From Methanocaldococcus jannaschii DSM 2661 (GTDB taxonomy: Archaea; AGJL01; Methanococci; Methanococcales; Methanocaldococcaceae): 6,484 bases of DNA. The DNA is taken from contig NC_001732.1 in the NCBI RefSeq assembly GCF_000091665.1, positions 1-6,484 of the forward strand. The letters run 5' to 3'. A program made the translations under genes and the position numbers. This document shows positions 1,082-6,484 of the stretch, piece by piece; positions within the stretch are counted from its first letter, which is position 1; every line of letters begins with the position of its first letter. The notes below the pieces were generated by a model, which ran no database searches, was not told the origin of the DNA, and was given only the letters and a program-made list of their open reading frames with translations.

Positions 1082-1381
1082 TTATAACTTGCTTGCAATT
1101 TCTATTGCAGTTTTTAAATCCTCTATTGTCCTTTGGGAGAGGATATAATTATCCACACAAAATTTTAGATTCTCTTTTAATGATTTTTCTTGGTCTAACA
1201 AGGATAATCTTTGGATTATTCTTTTAATTACACCCTGATAATAATAAACTTCTGAATTTTTACTACTCTCCATTTTTAAAATAAGTTTTTTCAATTTGTA
1301 TATTGCTTCAATTGTTGGTAATTCTAAAAGTTCTTCAAAAGCTGTCATAATATCCCACCAAAATATTCTAAAGTTATTCAT
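1082..1381 (-). CDS. hypothetical small protein (99 aa, start trimmed from the 129-aa track ORF)
   Basis: The in-frame ATG at 1381-1379 overlaps the stop of the upstream 108-aa ORF, reading ATGAATAA on the minus strand. That 8-nt overlap is typical of translational coupling. The 30 codons upstream of it lie inside the 108-aa ORF and are Cys/Ser/Ile-rich junk-like sequence. An alternative start is ATG 1348, preceded by GGTGGG at about 7 nt, which would give 88 aa. I recognised no family. Confidence 0.55.
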
Positions 1382-1700
1382 CTGGGAATAGACACAAATT
1401 ACACTTGATAATCCACTTTTTATTCTTATCATCTGGATACACATCGATAATATTATGCTCATCATCAGCATACTCTAATCTTGAAGTCCATGGGAGTGTT
1501 TTTAGAGTGGAAATAAGAGCATTCAAAACATTCTTTCTAAAACTATCTTCACTTGAAGATTTTAACAAACTTTCCAAAGATTTTATAAATTCAACCAACT
1601 CCTCAATCTCTCCCCTCATAACCTCATCAAAAGTTAATTCTAAATCGCACTTTATAATCCATTCTCCAAAACCACCAACTTGAACCTTACAATCCCTCAT
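1374..1700 (-). CDS. hypothetical acidic small protein (108 aa) with related N- and C-terminal WIIKC segments
   Basis: ATG 1700 is preceded on the minus strand by GGGTGG (TTGTGGGTGGTTAA-ATG). By my count it has 22 acidic and 14 basic residues. [13 protein letters not shown] (1623-1661) and [13 protein letters not shown] (1377-1415) match at 9 of 13 residues. I recognised no family. Confidence 0.6.
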
Positions 1701-1933: not shown

Positions 1934-3253
1934 ATGTTTGTGGATAGAGAAGAAGAACTAAAAGCATTAAATGAAAAGTTAGATAGTAACAACTTTGAAT
2001 TCATAGTTATTTATGGGAGAAGAAGAATAGGGAAGACAAAGTTGGCATTAAAAAGTGTAGAAAATAGGGAGCATATTTATTACTTAGCAGTTGAGGGAGA
2101 TAATTTAAAGCATTTTAAAAGATATGCTTCAAAGGTTGAACCAACAATTGAATATGCTAAAGAGGATTGGGAAGCATATTTTAACTTTTTAAAAGATAAA
2201 ATCATTATCATTGATGAGTTTCCAAACTTAATTAAAGAAAATCCTAATGTATTATCTCTATTCCAGAGAATTGTAGATATACATTTAAAAAATACAAAAA
2301 CAAAACTTATTATTCTTGGCTCATCAATATCCATGATGGGAGAGAAGGTCTTAAGTTATAAATCTCCTCTTTATGGGAGAAAAACTGGAGTTTTGAAGAT
2401 TAAACCATTGAAGTTTAAGCATTTAAAGGAATTTTTCCCAAAAGCTATTTGGGAAGAGTTGGTTGAAATTTATGGTTTTGCTGATGGTATTCCATACTAT
2501 CTTGAGAAGGTAAAACTTCCATTTTGGGATTACTTAGATAAAGAGATTAAGAGAGTTGATAGTTTTTTGAGATATGAGGTTGATTTCTTGATGAAGTATG
2601 AGTTTGAGGAGCCAACAACTTATAAAAAGATTCTTGAGGCAATAGCTTTTGGTAATCACACACTTGGAGAGATAAAGAATTACTTGGGCTTTAAGCATTC
2701 AGATTTAACACCATATTTAAAAAACTTGATTGAGGTTGAATTTATAGAGAGGCAAACTCCTATTACAGAAAGTGTAAAATCAAAAAAGGGGAGGTATTAC
2801 ATTAAAGATAATTTTATTGCTTTTTATTTTAGGTATATTTTTCCAAATTTATCTGCAATTGAAGAGGGGATTTTTGATATTGAGGAGATAAAGGCTGATT
2901 ATAATCAATATTTAGGATTTGTCTTTGAAAAAGTTGCTAAGGAGTTTTTAATTGAGCTGAATAAAATGAATAAATTACCATTTAAGTTTTTAAAGATTGG
3001 AAGATGGTGGCATAGGGGAGAAGAGATTGACTTAATTGCTTTAAATGATAATGATAAAAAAGCTTTATTTGTTGAGGTTAAATGGAAGGATTTGAAAGAT
3101 AGAGATGTTAAAAAGATATATAGGGATTTGTATAGAAAGTCAAAACTTGTTGGATTAGATGATTATGAAAAATATTATGCCATTGTTGGAAAGAAGATTG
3201 AGAGTAAAGAGAATGGAGATTGTTTATTATTTGATTTGGAGGATTTCTCATAA
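1934..3253 (+). CDS. AAA+ 'archaeal ATPase' family protein with wHTH and C-terminal DUF234-like PD-(D/E)xK module (439 aa)
   Basis: Walker A is GRRRIGKT (2015-2038) and Walker B is IIIIDEF (D94 at 2213). The segment LILGSSIS resembles sensor-1. A wHTH-like segment reads TLGEIKNYLGFKHSDLTPYLKNLIEVEFIER. The C-terminal EIDLIAL...ALFVEVKWK supplies D366 (3029), E381 (3074) and K383 (3080), a restriction-endonuclease-like D..ExK. The N-terminal FVDREEEL is typical of the multi-paralog Methanococcales/Thermococcales family. Confidence 0.9.
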   Translation: MFVDREEELKALNEKLDSNNFEFIVIYGRRRIGKTKLALKSVENREHIYYLAVEGDNLKHFKRYASKVEPTIEYAKEDWEAYFNFLKDKIIIIDEFPNLIKENPNVLSLFQRIVDIHLKNTKTKLIILGSSISMMGEKVLSYKSPLYGRKTGVLKIKPLKFKHLKEFFPKAIWEELVEIYGFADGIPYYLEKVKLPFWDYLDKEIKRVDSFLRYEVDFLMKYEFEEPTTYKKILEAIAFGNHTLGEIKNYLGFKHSDLTPYLKNLIEVEFIERQTPITESVKSKKGRYYIKDNFIAFYFRYIFPNLSAIEEGIFDIEEIKADYNQYLGFVFEKVAKEFLIELNKMNKLPFKFLKIGRWWHRGEEIDLIALNDNDKKALFVEVKWKDLKDRDVKKIYRDLYRKSKLVGLDDYEKYYAIVGKKIESKENGDCLLFDLEDFS

Positions 3254-3264
3254 AAGTTATTGGG

Positions 3265-3453
3265 GTGGAAATTATAGCATTATTGATTGAAGAAGGAATC
3301 ATAATAATAAAAGATAAAAAAGTTGCAGAGAGGTTTTTAAAAGATTTAGAATCATCACAAGGAATGGATTGGAAAGAAATTAGAGAAAGAGCAGAAAGAG
3401 CTAAGAAACAACTTGAAGAGGGGATTGAATGGGCAAAGAAGACGAAATTATAA
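3265..3453 (+). CDS. small charged hypothetical protein (62 aa, GTG start as tracked); possible antitoxin-like partner of the downstream pseudogene
   Basis: The ORF starts 11 nt after the ATPase stop and has a K/E-rich helical composition. Its 3' end is overlapped by 25 nt by the ATG (3429) of the downstream degraded gene. It has no well-spaced SD and a GTG start, so the start and even the reality of this gene are uncertain. Confidence 0.35.
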   Translation: MEIIALLIEEGIIIIKDKKVAERFLKDLESSQGMDWKEIRERAERAKKQLEEGIEWAKKTKL

Positions 3454-3723
3454 TCCTACTAAAAATATTATTAGAAGAATATGATGAAGAAAAAGTAAAA
3501 GCTTTATTAAACTCTTTTCTTGCCACAAAAATTTAGATGTTGAGAATTTTTTTTAAAGAATTCTGCAATATTATTTGAAAAATTAAATAAGAGCAGAATA
3601 TATCTAATTTTCAAAAGAGGGACTAATGATATTTTAGCATACTTCACTCTAACAATCTCTATCTTAAAAATAGTTGATGAAAAAATATCAAAAAAGACAT
3701 TAATTTTGTATAGGATAATTTAA
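3429..3723 (+). pseudogene. frameshifted, 3'-truncated remnant of a GNAT-acetyltransferase-like (TA-toxin-like) gene
   Basis: Three consecutive frames read MGKEDEIIILLKILLEEYDEEKVKALLNSF / SCHKNLDVENFF / LKNSAILFEKLNKSRIYLIFKRGTNDILAYFTLTISILKIVDEKISKKTLILYRII*. The frame breaks fall at the T4 run 3515-3518 and the T8 run 3547-3554, and adding one T at each restores the frame. The pattern F-x-C..(L)D.E.FL...A.....SR.YL....IL.YFTL matches the N-terminal half of GNAT toxins as I recall them. The acetyl-CoA motif (Q/R-x-x-G-x-G/A) is absent, so the gene is truncated. Confidence 0.45.
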
Positions 3724-3761: not shown

Positions 3762-3787
3762 GTTAATTGACTTTGAAGTCAATTCAC
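3762..3787. repeat. 26-bp palindromic repeat, copy 1 (GTTAATTGACTTTGAAGTCAATTCAC)
   Basis: Read directly from the sequence. It differs from copy 3 at 2 of 26 positions. The TGA stop of the 116-aa minus-strand ORF (3784-3786) lies inside the arm. Confidence 0.9.
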
Positions 3788-4134
3788 CTTATCAATTTCT
3801 CATACTCTTTGTCAATGGCAGTTCTAAGTGCTTCCATCCAATTTTCTGAAAGTTTTATATATCTCCTCGGCCTATTTGCTGGAGCTTCCAATTTTCTTGT
3901 TTTTATTATACCCACTTCCTCCAAATAAGTAAAAACCCTCCTCCATTTTCTCAACACAAGAGTAGGATCTTCCTTCATCGCCTCAGCCAAGGCAATATTA
4001 CACATTTCCATAGGACCACACTTACAATAACCACTCTCAAAATGCCTCTCACAAGCAAAAAGAACTTTTTTAAATTCTTCTGAATGTTCAAGAACTGCAA
4101 TTAATCTAAATAATGTTCTAAGCTCTACACTCAT
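3784..4134 (-). CDS. small Cys/His-cluster protein with C-terminal winged-helix-like DNA-binding region (116 aa); candidate regulator
   Basis: The SD-like GGAGTG lies 5 nt before ATG 4134, and a TATA-like TTTTATAC lies about 27-34 nt upstream on the minus strand. The cluster C28-x2-H31-x5-C37-x-C39-x5-C45 spans 4000-4053. The segment RKWRRVFTYLEEVGIIKTRKLEAPANRPRRYIKLS looks like a recognition helix plus a basic wing. The gene is flanked on both sides by the 26-bp palindrome. Confidence 0.75.
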   Translation of the reverse strand: MSVELRTLFRLIAVLEHSEEFKKVLFACERHFESGYCKCGPMEMCNIALAEAMKEDPTLVLRKWRRVFTYLEEVGIIKTRKLEAPANRPRRYIKLSENWMEALRTAIDKEYEKLIR

Positions 4135-4176
4135 AATCCCACTCCTATAAAGATGCCAAGGTATAAAAGTCTATTA

Positions 4177-4202
4177 GTGAATTGACTTTAAAGTCAATTC
4201 AG
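4177..4202. repeat. 26-bp palindromic repeat, copy 2 (GTGAATTGACTTTAAAGTCAATTCAG); candidate operator
   Basis: The inner 24 bp (4178-4201) form a perfect palindrome. It sits 43 bp upstream of the 116-aa gene start, immediately upstream of a TATA-like element on the minus strand. Confidence 0.9.
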
Positions 4203-4278
4203 CATTATTATATAGTATATCCCTAATTGTTTATATTTCAAACGGAAAAATAAATATTTTGAAAATGAACAATAGCAT

Positions 4279-4419
4279 TTATTTTTCACATTTTTCATTA
4301 GATTCATCTTTTTTAATTGGTTTATCCAACATTTTAGGTATTAAAAGTGTAAGAACAAGAACTAACACTATATACACCAACATTGCAGTAAGAAACACTA
4401 ACAACCTTCCCTCAACCAT
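4279..4419 (-). CDS. 46-aa single-pass membrane peptide (ORF not in the supplied track)
   Basis: On the minus strand GGGAGGT is followed by 7 nt and then ATG 4419. The ORF translates to MVEGRLLVFLTAMLVYIVLVLVLTLLIPKMLDKPIKKDESNEKCEK with stop TAA at 4281-4279. It has a hydrophobic stretch of about 22 residues followed by a charged tail. T-rich tracts follow the stop. It lies between palindrome copies 3 and 2. Confidence 0.55.
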   Translation of the reverse strand: MVEGRLLVFLTAMLVYIVLVLVLTLLIPKMLDKPIKKDESNEKCEK

Positions 4420-4483
4420 TCTAATAACCTCCCAACAAACTAACTAATTTTTTATTCTAAAAAACTTATACTTAGATGCCATT

Positions 4484-4509
4484 GTGAATTGACTTTGAAA
4501 TCAATTCAC
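4484..4509. repeat. 26-bp palindromic repeat, copy 3 (GTGAATTGACTTTGAAATCAATTCAC)
   Basis: Read directly from the sequence. It lies 49 nt downstream of the nurA stop and 65 nt upstream of the 46-aa ORF start on the minus strand. Confidence 0.9.
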
Positions 4510-5828: not shown

Positions 5829-6484
5829 TTAAATTTTTAAATTTTTAAGACCATCTTCTCCTCCTAAAACTCCATCATATTTTTTAATTTTAACCAATGC
5901 TGGAAGTGGGAGTGAAGAACCAACTACTATTGCCTCTCCAGTTGATAATTGTGGTAAATCTTGAAGTAAATCCTCTCCAACATTCTCGGAACTCTCTAAA
6001 ATATATTTTTGGTCTGTTGGCTCTACAATTCTTAAAATTATCTTAGTATTCATTTGAGATAAGACTGTAGGATTCAATTCTTTAGGCCTCTGACTTACTA
6101 AACCCAATCCAACTCCAAATTTTCTTCCTTCTTTTGCAATTCTATTAATCCAATAACCAGACCTATCCTTCAAATTCTTTGCTGCAAAAAGGTGTGCTTC
6201 TTCTATAATTACTAATGTTGGTTTTTCAAGTGCTTTAATTTCAACTATCTCATCATGGACTGATTTAATTCTCTCTTTTAAAACTCTTTTTAAGAATTCT
6301 CCTACAATTGTTATTGCCTCCTCATCCTCAATCTTTTGAAGTGGGAGAACATTTATTTTATCACTCTTAATGTCAAACATTCCCTCATTCTCTCCCAAAA
6401 TATTTTTATTTTTGTTAATAAACCATCTCAACTTTTCAATAACTCTATTTATTGACATTTCATCATCTTTTTTTACAGTTTTAG
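5829..6484 (-). CDS. herA: HerA-type (DUF87/FtsK-like) hexameric ATPase, C-terminal part; the 5' end lies beyond the window
   Basis: Walker B is LVIIEEAH (E86 at 6203-6201). The stretch RIAKEGRKFGVGLGLVSQRP...VLSQMNTKIILRI...LSTGEAIVVG is the conserved HerA C-terminal core. The frame stays open upstream of the tracked Met 6458 to the window end (..KTVKKDDE-MSINR..), so the Walker A part is outside the window. The stop at 5829 is 32 nt before the nurA ATG. Confidence 0.85.
   Translation of the reverse strand, partial: KTVKKDDEMSINRVIEKLRWFINKNKNILGENEGMFDIKSDKINVLPLQKIEDEEAITIVGEFLKRVLKERIKSVHDEIVEIKALEKPTLVIIEEAHLFAAKNLKDRSGYWINRIAKEGRKFGVGLGLVSQRPKELNPTVLSQMNTKIILRIVEPTDQKYILESSENVGEDLLQDLPQLSTGEAIVVGSSLPLPALVKIKKYDGVLGGEDGLKNLKI

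What the first reader, a model, noticed from the sequence alone, without database searches (positions are those of the whole stretch)
3762..4509. Triplicated 26-bp palindrome partitions two mini-genes into cassette-like units downstream of herA-nurA
A dyad with consensus GTGAATTGACTTT|AAAGTCAATTCAC occurs three times, at 3762-3787, 4177-4202 and 4484-4509. The inner 24 bp of copy 2 are a perfect palindrome. The copies differ at only 2-3 of 26 positions and are spaced 415 and 307 bp apart. On the minus strand the order is nurA, pal3, 46-aa membrane peptide, pal2, 116-aa wHTH protein, pal1. The TGA stop of the 116-aa gene is itself the first triplet of the pal1 arm. Copies 2 and 3 also share a flank motif, TATA-n-AGATGCCA, with the exact 8-mer at 4151-4158 and 4474-4481. 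That motif lies on the promoter-proximal side for the two minus-strand genes, although its distance from the dyad differs (18 nt versus 2 nt). A long dyad is what a dimeric winged-helix protein would bind, so the simplest model is an operator set for the adjacent 116-aa protein. Alternative models are hairpin terminators, or recombination/insertion boundaries of a 748-bp segment. No coding feature explains this structure.
Basis: partly seen in the sequence, partly recalled or inferred. Interest (0 to 1): 0.75.

Follow-up and report, generated by a model that had tools for sequence, protein, structure and literature searches.

The report
Plasmid regulator with scattered palindromic sites
The three 26-bp palindromes are real, and they are most likely the DNA sites bound by the small winged-helix protein encoded between them; this protein-plus-site pair recurs on plasmids of two orders of heat-loving archaea and has not been described before, but it is an ordinary kind of gene-control device.

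Summary
**Observation:** confirmed. Three copies of GTGAATTGAC-N6-GTCAATTCAC lie at 3762-3787, 4177-4202 and 4484-4509, where chance predicts none.

**Source:** the window is most likely the large extrachromosomal element (ECE) of Methanocaldococcus.

**The palindrome is not local.**
- The same element has a fourth copy 5.7 kb away.
- A 59-kb relative has at least nine copies in about 28 kb.

**The palindrome travels with the 116-aa gene.** In all eight other lineages examined that allowed the test, homologues of that gene are flanked by this palindrome family.
- These include Thermococcales plasmids whose protein is about 63% identical.
- There, DNA similarity to the window is confined to the gene (63-66%) and the palindromes (80-92%).
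- A 42%-identical homologue on pTBMP1 is paired with a shifted variant site.

**What is conserved is sequence, not pairing.** Across 80 half-sites there is one compensatory change against dozens of one-sided changes.

**The protein** models as a MarR/ArsR-like winged helix with an invariant Cys/His cluster. It matches no curated family.

**Best reading (about 0.55):** these are cognate operator sites of a plasmid-borne autoregulator that also has sites across the plasmid. As long repeats, they also act as recombination points. One relative lacks exactly the 307-bp unit made of the 46-aa ORF plus one palindrome.

**Rivals:** RNA-hairpin terminators and Xer/dif-type sites are disfavoured. Binding has not been tested.

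The parts
3762..3787 (.). pal1: GTTAATTGACTTTGAAGTCAATTCAC. It overlaps the stop codon of the 116-aa gene and lies in a convergent intergenic region.
   Evidence: Homologues in L196, L053 and L203 also have a palindrome over or next to the stop codon.
3784..4134 (-). Gene for the 116-aa winged-helix protein. It has invariant C28, H31, C37, C39 and C45 and the wing motif RPRRYIKLS. It is the proposed binder of the palindromes.
   Evidence: alignment A1; model, pLDDT 71.5; Foldseek: MarR/ArsR-type regulators; Phr, 2p4w, E=0.016. No curated family matches.
4161..4168 (-). TATA-like box (TTTTATAC on the minus strand) between pal2 and the ATG of the 116-aa gene. It begins at the 9th base after the palindrome.
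   Evidence: Read from the sequence. A/T-rich TATA-like boxes follow the proximal palindrome within 2-9 nt in all six lineages compared. No transcription start site data are available.
4177..4202 (.). pal2: GTGAATTGACTTTAAAGTCAATTCAG. This is the proximal site; 42 nt separate it from the start codon of the 116-aa gene.
   Evidence: A proximal site ends 42-61 nt upstream of the start codon in six lineages.
4279..4419 (-). 46-aa hydrophobic ORF with the Shine-Dalgarno-like sequence GGGAGGT. Its status as a gene is uncertain.
   Evidence: It is an orphan: the only hit is a 74-aa frameshifted version in L053. It is absent from the L196/L197/L198 relatives.
4484..4509 (.). pal3: GTGAATTGACTTTGAAATCAATTCAC. 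It lies 49 nt downstream of the nurA stop and 65 nt upstream of the 46-aa ORF.
4190..4496 (.). 307-bp unit (one palindrome equivalent plus the 46-aa ORF) that is precisely absent in relatives. The junction falls inside the palindrome.
   Evidence: Window 4600-4497 aligns to L196 6175-6277, then window 4189-4101 aligns to L196 6278-6366.
4151..4158 (.). AGATGCCA flank motif, copy near pal2. It is the reverse complement of TGGCATCT in the promoter region of the 116-aa gene.
   Evidence: It is partly conserved in L196 (TTAGCATTT) and absent next to other copies.
4474..4481 (.). AGATGCCA flank motif, copy next to pal3.
   Evidence: Together, this suggests that pal2 and pal3 and their flanks arose by local duplication.

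Best explanation
**Claim.** The 26-bp palindromes (two 10-bp arms, GTGAATTGAC, around a variable 6-bp centre) are the cognate DNA-binding sites of the 116-aa winged-helix protein encoded between pal2 and pal1. Protein and sites form a self-contained module carried by plasmids of hyperthermophilic Methanococcales and Thermococcales.

**Proposed mechanism (inferred).**
- A dimer of the protein binds each palindrome.
- The sites flanking its own gene give autoregulation. The proximal site abuts the BRE/TATA region.
- Further copies elsewhere on the plasmid put other transcription units under the same control. This is comparable to a plasmid global regulator.
- The conserved Cys/His cluster may make binding metal- or redox-dependent.
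- Because the sites are long and nearly identical, they also act as recombination points. This produces cassette-like gains and losses such as the 307-bp unit holding the 46-aa ORF.

**Shown here.** Co-occurrence of gene and site, conservation at the sequence level, independence of the two half-sites, conserved position relative to the gene, co-divergence on pTBMP1, and the winged-helix fold.

**Inferred only.** Binding, the direction of any regulation, and the role of the distant copies.
For: 1. **Co-occurrence with the gene.** Palindromes of this family flank the gene in the window and in all eight other lineages that gave usable context: L053, L196-198, T. prieurii L190, L192 and L195, L199, L203 and, as a variant, pTBMP1. 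The short contig of the distant homologue P0017 (L202) showed none.
2. **Only shared gene.** The winged-helix gene is the only ORF shared by the ECE loci and all four Thermococcales loci.
3. **Sites outlast the gene.** Between the window and Thermococcales, DNA similarity is confined to the gene (63-66%) and the palindromes (80-92%).
4. **Sequence, not pairing, is conserved.** In 40 sites (80 half-sites), T6 is 100% conserved and T2, G3, T7 and G8 are 94-98% conserved. Deviations are one-sided, with a single compensatory double change.
5. **Conserved position.** The proximal site ends 42-61 nt upstream of the start codon in six lineages, with a TATA-like box 2-9 nt after it. In Thermococcales these sites lie in divergent promoter regions.
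6. **Co-divergence.** The 42%-identical homologue on pTBMP1 is paired with a variant, GAATTGC-N7-GCAATTC, at four sites. One ends 24 nt upstream of its ATG.
7. **Fold.** The AlphaFold2 model has winged-helix topology. Its best structural matches are MarR/ArsR regulators, several solved with operator DNA. There are also weak sequence matches to Phr and MarR.
Against: - No binding or transcription data exist.
- The structural model is of moderate confidence (pLDDT 71.5) and the Foldseek E-values are only about 1e-3.
- On the ECEs many copies lie just 3' of genes, and none lies in the three divergent regions of L053. That distribution is not what a pure promoter operator predicts.
- Enrichment of TATA boxes next to sites is weak: 5 of 27 sides with at most one mismatch, against a 4-8% background.
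- Six of 40 sites have a 5-bp rather than a 6-bp centre, which a rigid dimer might not tolerate.
- So many near-identical 26-bp sites cannot have arisen one by one through point mutation. Some copy-spreading process is needed, and the operator model does not supply it.
- These plasmids also share another DNA- or RNA-binding candidate, a zinc-finger plus Sm-like protein (PMC3543421).
Confidence: 0.55

Rival explanations
1. The same protein binds the same sites, but for plasmid maintenance rather than transcription. The arrays around the gene would be a replication-origin (iteron-like) or centromere-like nucleoprotein region, and the protein an origin-, copy-number- or partition-binding factor.
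For: - In Thermococcales plasmids the gene sits inside the largest non-coding regions. Two to three sites lie on each side at a regular 73-84 bp spacing.
- In L192 the gene lies next to a 366-aa gene, a Prim-Pol replicase gene and a Cdc6/Orc1 gene.
- Published analyses place the origin of pTN2- and pEXT9a-like plasmids in the large repeat-rich intergenic region next to the replication genes (PMC2926602, PMC3543421).
Against: - Nine sites spread over an 11-kb plasmid, and at least nine over 28 kb of an ECE, cannot all belong to one origin.
- No ParA-, ParM- or TubZ-type partner is consistently adjacent.
- Cumulative GC skew on L195 and pTBMP1 follows gene orientation and gives no origin signal at the cluster.
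- In the window the neighbours are herA and nurA, not replication genes.
Confidence: 0.15
2. The palindromes are selfish REP- or MITE-like elements that spread through the plasmids. The flanked gene would be their mobilising or domesticating factor, a 'REPtron'-like arrangement resembling RAYT genes flanked by REPs.
For: - The layout matches: a single-copy gene flanked by palindromes, with further copies in intergenic DNA, often just after stop codons.
- The high information content of the sites implies spread by copying rather than independent origin.
- Copies a and b in L053 share about 40 nt of flank.
Against: - The protein has a winged-helix fold. It has no HUH/Y1 transposase fold, no HUH motif and no Y1_Tnp match.
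- The genome-collection scan with the core pattern gave only single chance matches in unrelated taxa. No multicopy chromosomal family appeared.
- No target-site duplications or insertion polymorphisms of a bare palindrome were seen.
- The sites keep a fixed position relative to the gene's start codon across two orders.
Confidence: 0.1
3. The palindromes are core sites for site-specific recombination, like pdif modules, integron attC sites or shufflon sites. They would bracket exchangeable gene cassettes and be acted on by a host or plasmid recombinase.
For: - The geometry, 10-bp arms around a 6-bp centre that can be asymmetric (TTTGAA versus TTCAAA), resembles tyrosine-recombinase core sites.
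- The 307-bp unit is precisely present or absent, with its junction inside the palindrome.
- The 6.3-kb block shared by L053 and L186 ends 20 bp from a palindrome.
- Single genes such as the chromate transporter are bracketed by sites.
Against: - There is no similarity to the only experimentally defined archaeal dif site, P. abyssi ATTGGATATAATCGGCCTTATATCTAAA (PMC2958812).
- No recombinase was recorded among the called genes of the complete 11-kb plasmid L195 or near the sites in the other loci.
- Other homology breakpoints lie 190-800 bp from the nearest palindrome.
- A 26-bp direct repeat is enough for deletion by ordinary recombination or replication slippage.
- The 46-aa ORF is found in no other context.
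Confidence: 0.1
4. The palindromes act as RNA hairpins at the 3' ends of transcripts, as terminators, processing sites or stabilisers.
For: - On the ECEs every copy lies in a tandem or convergent intergenic region that contains a gene's 3' end. Several start within 0-50 nt of a stop codon.
- The few transitions in the arms of ECE copies give G-U wobble pairs on the sense strand of the upstream gene (6 of 6; read).
- The variable centre has the size of a tetraloop.
Against: - In Thermococcales the sites upstream of the gene lie in divergent promoter regions and would not be in any 3' UTR.
- There is no covariation: 1 compensatory change against about 45 one-sided changes.
- Sequence is conserved across orders, which a structure-only element does not need.
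- The predicted hairpin free energy is about 0 at 85 C for pal1 and pal3.
- No U-tract follows the palindromes.
- The wobble bias can equally come from strand-biased deamination.
Confidence: 0.04

Closest known systems
MarR/ArsR-type winged-helix autoregulators with palindromic operators (for example MarR, and Phr of Pyrococcus, PDB 2p4w)
   Same: - Small protein with a predicted winged helix-turn-helix and a C-terminal helix.
- Inverted-repeat site of about 26 bp next to its own promoter.
- Weak sequence similarity in the wing to Phr and MarR models.
   Different: - No Pfam, NCBIfam or PHROG model reaches its threshold.
- It has an invariant C-x2-H-x5-C-x-C-x5-C cluster.
- The family is tiny: 22 clusters among 1.84 billion representatives.
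- Sites also occur over the stop codon of the gene and at many distant places on the plasmid.
KorB with its OB operators on IncP-1 plasmids such as RK2 (twelve 13-bp palindromes spread over a 60-kb plasmid; cited from general knowledge)
   Same: One plasmid-encoded protein is paired with many copies of a conserved palindrome scattered over a plasmid of 11-59 kb. Some copies lie at promoters and some lie far from any promoter.
   Different: - KorB is a ParB-family protein with a partition role. The protein here has no ParB domain and no adjacent ParA.
- The site is twice as long.
- The hosts are archaea with TBP/TFB promoters.
REPtrons (RAYT genes flanked by REP palindromes)
   Same: A gene is flanked by the same palindromes that are dispersed through intergenic DNA, often after stop codons.
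   Different: - The protein is not a HUH/Y1 transposase.
- Copies are restricted to plasmids and number a few to about ten, not hundreds.
pdif modules of Acinetobacter plasmids, and Xer/dif sites in general
   Same: - Short inverted arms around a 6-bp centre.
- Multiple copies on one plasmid bracket single genes.
- One module-sized indel has its ends in the sites.
   Different: - There is no sequence similarity to the archaeal dif site.
- No evidence of Xer action.
- The sites co-vary with a winged-helix gene rather than with a recombinase.
AspA with its palindromic centromere site on Sulfolobus plasmid pNOB8 (cited from general knowledge)
   Same: An archaeal plasmid carries a small winged-helix protein that binds a palindrome of about 23 bp upstream of its own gene.
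   Different: AspA works with ParB and ParA encoded in the same operon and spreads from a single site. Here no partition partners are present and the sites are many.

Membership tests
MarR / ArsR / PadR winged-helix regulators (Pfam PF01047, PF12802, PF01022, PF03551) | Match to the family HMM above the curated threshold | tested here: not met
   the best hits are D123, DUF7599 and HTH_TbsP_C at about 14.5 bits, against cut-offs of 24-27. Phr and BagL/FevM at 14-21 bits, against cut-offs of 230-320.
MarR / ArsR / PadR winged-helix regulators | Winged helix-turn-helix fold (helices, a recognition helix and a beta-hairpin wing) | tested here: met
   the secondary-structure order is H-H-H-E-H-H-E-E-H, at pLDDT 71.5; the top 50 Foldseek matches are nearly all MarR/ArsR-type regulators plus TFE-alpha winged helices (E of 1e-3 to 4e-2).
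MarR / ArsR / PadR winged-helix regulators | A dimer binds a palindromic operator at its own promoter | not testable with these tools
   Only the position is shown: the site ends 42-61 nt upstream of the start codon in six lineages.
REP/RAYT (REPtron) | The flanked gene encodes a HUH/Y1 transposase (PF01797) | tested here: not met
   The Pfam scan gives no such hit. There is no H-hydrophobic-H motif among the invariant columns. The fold is a winged helix.
REP/RAYT (REPtron) | Palindromes dispersed in many copies through the host chromosome | tested here: inconclusive
   The scan of one genome per species with AATTGACTTTRAARTCAATT gave 42 single matches, none in Methanococcales. The source replicon itself was not found, so the source genome may be masked or absent.
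Xer/dif or pdif recombination sites | Sequence related to the host dif site recognised by XerA | tested here: not met
   The P. abyssi dif site is ATTGGATATAA-TCGGCC-TTATATCTAAA (PMC2958812). The site here is GTGAATTGAC-TTTAAA-GTCAATTCAC. The arms are unrelated.
Xer/dif or pdif recombination sites | Gene modules bounded by sites differ between related plasmids | tested here: inconclusive
   There is one exact case, the 307-bp unit, and one breakpoint 20 bp from a site. Three other breakpoints lie 190-800 bp away.
Integron gene cassettes (attC) | An adjacent IntI-type integrase with attI, and an array of promoterless cassettes in one orientation | tested here: not met
   No integrase is recorded in the window or the loci. 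Flanked genes lie on both strands and have their own TATA-like boxes.
Hairpin terminator or 3' RNA stem-loop | A stem kept by compensatory changes, stable at growth temperature, and located only at 3' ends | tested here: not met
   There is 1 compensatory change against about 45 one-sided changes. The free energy is about 0 at 85 C for pal1 and pal3. Sites occur in divergent promoter regions in Thermococcales.
ParB/KorB with parS/OB | ParB-family DNA-binding protein | tested here: not met
   The Pfam scan of the 116-aa protein gives no ParB-type hit.
Rfam RNA families | Match to any curated covariance model | tested here: not met
   the only hit in the window is a sub-threshold CRISPR-DR45 match at 6275-6298, away from the palindromes.

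The most novel reading that the evidence does not exclude
The palindrome and its winged-helix/Cys-His protein form an archaeal plasmid system for modular gene exchange, working like a REPtron or a pdif system. The protein, alone or with a host nuclease or recombinase, would recognise the palindromes. Recombination between them would move single-gene modules, many of them defence genes, within and between plasmids of Methanococcales and Thermococcales. That would explain why a 26-bp site is nearly identical at many unrelated intergenic positions and across two orders.
Probability: 0.12. Interest if true: 0.8.

Novelty: new member of a known kind. Interest (0 to 1): 0.5.

Why it matters
- **A testable pair.** If confirmed, this would be the first defined pair of a DNA site and its binding protein for the large extrachromosomal element of M. 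jannaschii and for several Thermococcales plasmid types. Their regulation, origins and maintenance functions are still only predicted.
- **A practical tool.** A short, very well conserved operator with a small thermostable binder would be useful for shuttle vectors and for controllable promoters in hyperthermophiles.
- **A sensor question.** The invariant Cys/His cluster raises the possibility of a metal- or redox-sensing switch.
- **Plasmid evolution.** The scattered, nearly identical sites, and one precise cassette-sized indel at them, offer a concrete way to study how defence-gene-rich archaeal plasmids reshuffle their cargo.

Tried and rejected
- **Rfam scan of the window.** Nothing at the palindromes.
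- **PLSDB and phage collections.** DNA search with the region gave no match, so the source replicon is not in PLSDB. Protein search against phages gave none.
- **Collection scans with the core pattern.** Genome, viral and metagenome scans returned mostly single chance matches in unrelated taxa. Only L102, L158 and L159 were related.
- **Walking along the ECE.** This was limited by the rule that only window proteins or their homologues can be looked up. Only 19.9 kb of a 22.7-kb contig was reached, and no contig crosses the fourth copy.
- **Fuzzy regex scan.** It skipped sites and was replaced by an edit-distance scan.
- **Thermococcus sp. 2319x1 homologue (P0005).** Not on record.
- **TATA-box enrichment next to sites.** Only weak.
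- **Cumulative GC skew.** It follows coding strand and is uninformative about an origin.
- **Literature.** No paper holds the site sequence or MJECL06/07. Searches for ECE palindromes or M. jannaschii transcription start site data gave nothing usable.
- **46-aa ORF as a mobile cassette.** No homologues elsewhere.
- **Distant homologue P0017.** No palindrome on its 1.1-kb contig.
- **scan_promoters_terminators.** Not used, because it models bacterial sigma-70 promoters and intrinsic terminators, which do not apply to archaea.
Full report
**1.
- The 26-mer GTGAATTGACTTTAAAGTCAATTCAC, searched with up to three mismatches, matches the window exactly three times. The matches are at 3762-3787, 4177-4202 and 4484-4509, with none in 200 shuffles. 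The spacings are 415 and 307 bp.
- The inner 24 bp of copy 2 are a perfect palindrome. The 8-mer AGATGCCA is at 4151-4158 and 4474-4481. The TGA stop of the 116-aa ORF lies inside pal1, at arm positions 2-4.
- The minus strand carries herA (partial), nurA, a 46-aa ORF and the 116-aa ORF.
- The half-site 8-mer GAATTGAC occurs nowhere else in the window.

**2. Where the window comes from.**
- The 249-aa ORF at 302-1051 hits Pfam MJECL01_C.
- The DNA is about 29% G+C.
- A 99%-identical copy of the 116-aa protein lies on a 59-kb contig.
- The window is therefore most likely the large extrachromosomal element (ECE) of Methanocaldococcus jannaschii or a close relative. This is an inference.
- The neighbourhood is rich in defence-type genes: type I restriction-modification, AAA_15/DUF3226, MazE, and an ATPase_2+DUF234 protein that hits PADLOC PDC-S27.

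**3. The palindrome is not a local feature.**
- In the same element, a contig covering 19.9 kb (L186) has a fourth copy 5.7 kb beyond pal3. Two independent assemblies end there.
- The 59-kb relative (L053 plus L158) has nine copies in about 28 kb, two of them with a 1-nt deletion. A third ECE type (L196, L197) and contig L102 carry more.
- All eight copies in L053 lie in tandem or convergent intergenic regions. None lies in the three divergent regions.

**4. The decisive comparison.** The 116-aa protein has few relatives: 15 hits in 5.8 billion proteins, and 22 clusters among 1.84 billion representatives. Most of those whose source could be identified come from Thermococcales plasmid-like DNA. 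Wherever enough context could be fetched, the same palindrome family flanks the gene.

| Locus | Source | Sites around the gene |
|---|---|---|
| L190 | T. prieurii | five sites within 3.7 kb, two of them 59 and 138 nt upstream of the gene |
| L192 | next to a 366-aa gene, a Prim-Pol replicase and Cdc6/Orc1 genes | three upstream (one within the neighbouring 366-aa ORF), two downstream |
| L195 | complete circle of 11,030 bp | nine sites, five of them around the gene |
| L199 | Thermococcales-type contig | six sites |
| L203 | hydrothermal-vent contig | two sites upstream, one over the stop codon |

Three further results tie the site to the gene.
- The winged-helix gene is the only ORF shared by the ECE loci and all four Thermococcales loci.
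- DNA similarity between the window and those loci is confined to the gene (63-66%) and the palindromes (80-92%).
- On pTBMP1 of T. barophilus, a homologue only 42% identical is paired with a shifted variant, GAATTGC-N7-GCAATTC. It occurs at four sites, one ending 24 nt upstream of the homologue's ATG.

**5. What is being conserved.**
- Forty sites (80 half-sites) give the consensus GTGAATTGAC-N6-GTCAATTCAC.
- T6 is invariant, and T2, G3, T7 and G8 are 94-98% conserved.
- The centre is variable. It is 6 bp long in 34 sites and 5 bp in 6.
- Departures from the consensus are almost always on one arm only, with one compensatory double change overall.
- Sequence, not base pairing, is under selection. 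That points to a sequence-specific binding factor rather than a structure-only element.

**6. Why RNA hairpins are unlikely.**
- The predicted hairpins are at about 0 kcal/mol at 85 C for pal1 and pal3.
- In Thermococcales the upstream sites lie in divergent promoter regions.
- No U-tract follows the sites.

**7. The protein.**
- The alignment shows invariant C28, H31, C37, C39 and C45 and the wing-like motif RPRRYIKLS.
- The AlphaFold2 model (pLDDT 71.5) has winged-helix topology.
- Foldseek returns MarR/ArsR-type regulators, several solved with operator DNA.
- Sequence profiles touch Phr and MarR only weakly.
- No Pfam, NCBIfam, PHROG or PADLOC model applies.
- It is therefore an unannotated winged-helix family with a probable metal or redox cluster.

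**8. Position of the sites.**
- A proximal site ends 42-61 nt upstream of the start codon in six lineages.
- A TATA-like box follows it within 2-9 nt. In the window this box is TTTTATAC at 4168-4161 on the minus strand.
- This is where an archaeal regulator would affect TFB/TBP binding.
- More generally, TATA-like boxes are only weakly enriched next to sites.

**9. The cassette idea.**
- Relatives L196, L197 and L198, whose protein is 89% identical, have a single palindrome between nurA and the gene. Its left flank matches that of pal3 and its right flank matches that of pal2.
- The alignment jumps from window 4497 to 4189. So exactly 307 bp, one palindrome equivalent plus the 46-aa ORF, are present or absent, and the junction lies inside the palindrome.
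- The 6.3-kb block shared by L053 and L186 ends 20 bp from a palindrome. Other breakpoints lie 190-800 bp from the nearest one.
- The 46-aa ORF is an orphan, and it is frameshifted in the nearest relative.
- The palindromes therefore do act as recombination points at least once. Ordinary recombination or slippage between 26-bp repeats is enough to explain that.
- The site is unrelated to the archaeal dif site.
- No recombinase accompanies the sites.

**10. Conclusion.** The best-supported reading is a cognate protein-operator module of hyperthermophilic archaeal plasmids. It is autoregulatory at its own gene, has additional sites across the plasmid, and its repeated sites also serve as recombination points.
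- Open points are how the sites spread to so many positions, and what the distant copies do.
- The rivals, in order of weight, are: a maintenance role (origin or partition) for the same protein-site pair; REP-like selfish spread; dedicated site-specific recombination; and RNA hairpins.
- Binding was not tested here. It is the single decisive experiment.

Noticed in passing
L186:19859-19884 (same element, 5.7 kb beyond pal3; outside the window): Two Logan contigs from different sequencing runs (L043, L051) both end exactly 5 nt beyond the fourth palindrome copy. The terminal 31-mer is therefore 5 nt plus the palindrome, and no contig crosses it. The DNA beyond may be repeated or variable in the population.
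   Followed up: partly
L053:1822-2039 and L053:3532-3740: A direct repeat of about 200 bp (79-83% identical) lies just outside the two palindromes that bracket the chromate-transporter gene. Those two palindromes also share about 40 nt of flank, including perfect TTTATATA boxes. No conserved ORF is present and the function is unknown.
   Followed up: partly
L200/L201 (pTBMP1, NC_015471.1): 9559-9579, 15131-15151, 16080-16100, 50929-50949: A variant palindrome, GAATTGC-N7-GCAATTC, accompanies a 42%-identical homologue (TERMP_RS11015, annotated as a hypothetical protein) on a 54-kb Thermococcus plasmid rich in defence genes.
   Followed up: yes
L202:236-598: A distant homologue of the 116-aa protein (P0017) lies directly behind a gene for a C2H2 zinc-finger plus Sm/Hfq-like protein. 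That family is known from pCIR10 gp2 and from MJECL27 of the M. jannaschii ECE. No palindrome is visible on this short contig.
   Followed up: no
window 4279-4419 (minus strand): The 46-aa hydrophobic ORF has a strong Shine-Dalgarno-like sequence but no homologues. The only hit is a version in L053 in which a 1-nt deletion replaces the C-terminal tail, giving 74 aa. It may not be a functional gene.
   Followed up: yes
window 1934-3253 (plus strand): The 439-aa ATPase_2 + DUF234 protein matches the PADLOC candidate defence family PDC-S27 (E=7e-43). Together with herA-nurA, type I restriction-modification and the AAA_15/DUF3226 genes nearby, the ECE looks like a defence-gene carrier.
   Followed up: no
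window 1082-1700 (minus strand) and 3265-3536 (plus strand): Two pairs of small overlapping ORFs (108 + 129 aa, and 62 + 35 aa) have no family assignment. Both pairs are conserved in the related ECE contigs.
   Followed up: no
L192:7838-7940, 8601-8707; L195:7858-7957, 8597-8787; L190:5839-5943: In Thermococcales plasmids, neighbouring palindromes on each side of the gene are spaced a regular 73-84 bp apart. This suggests a higher-order nucleoprotein arrangement.
   Followed up: no
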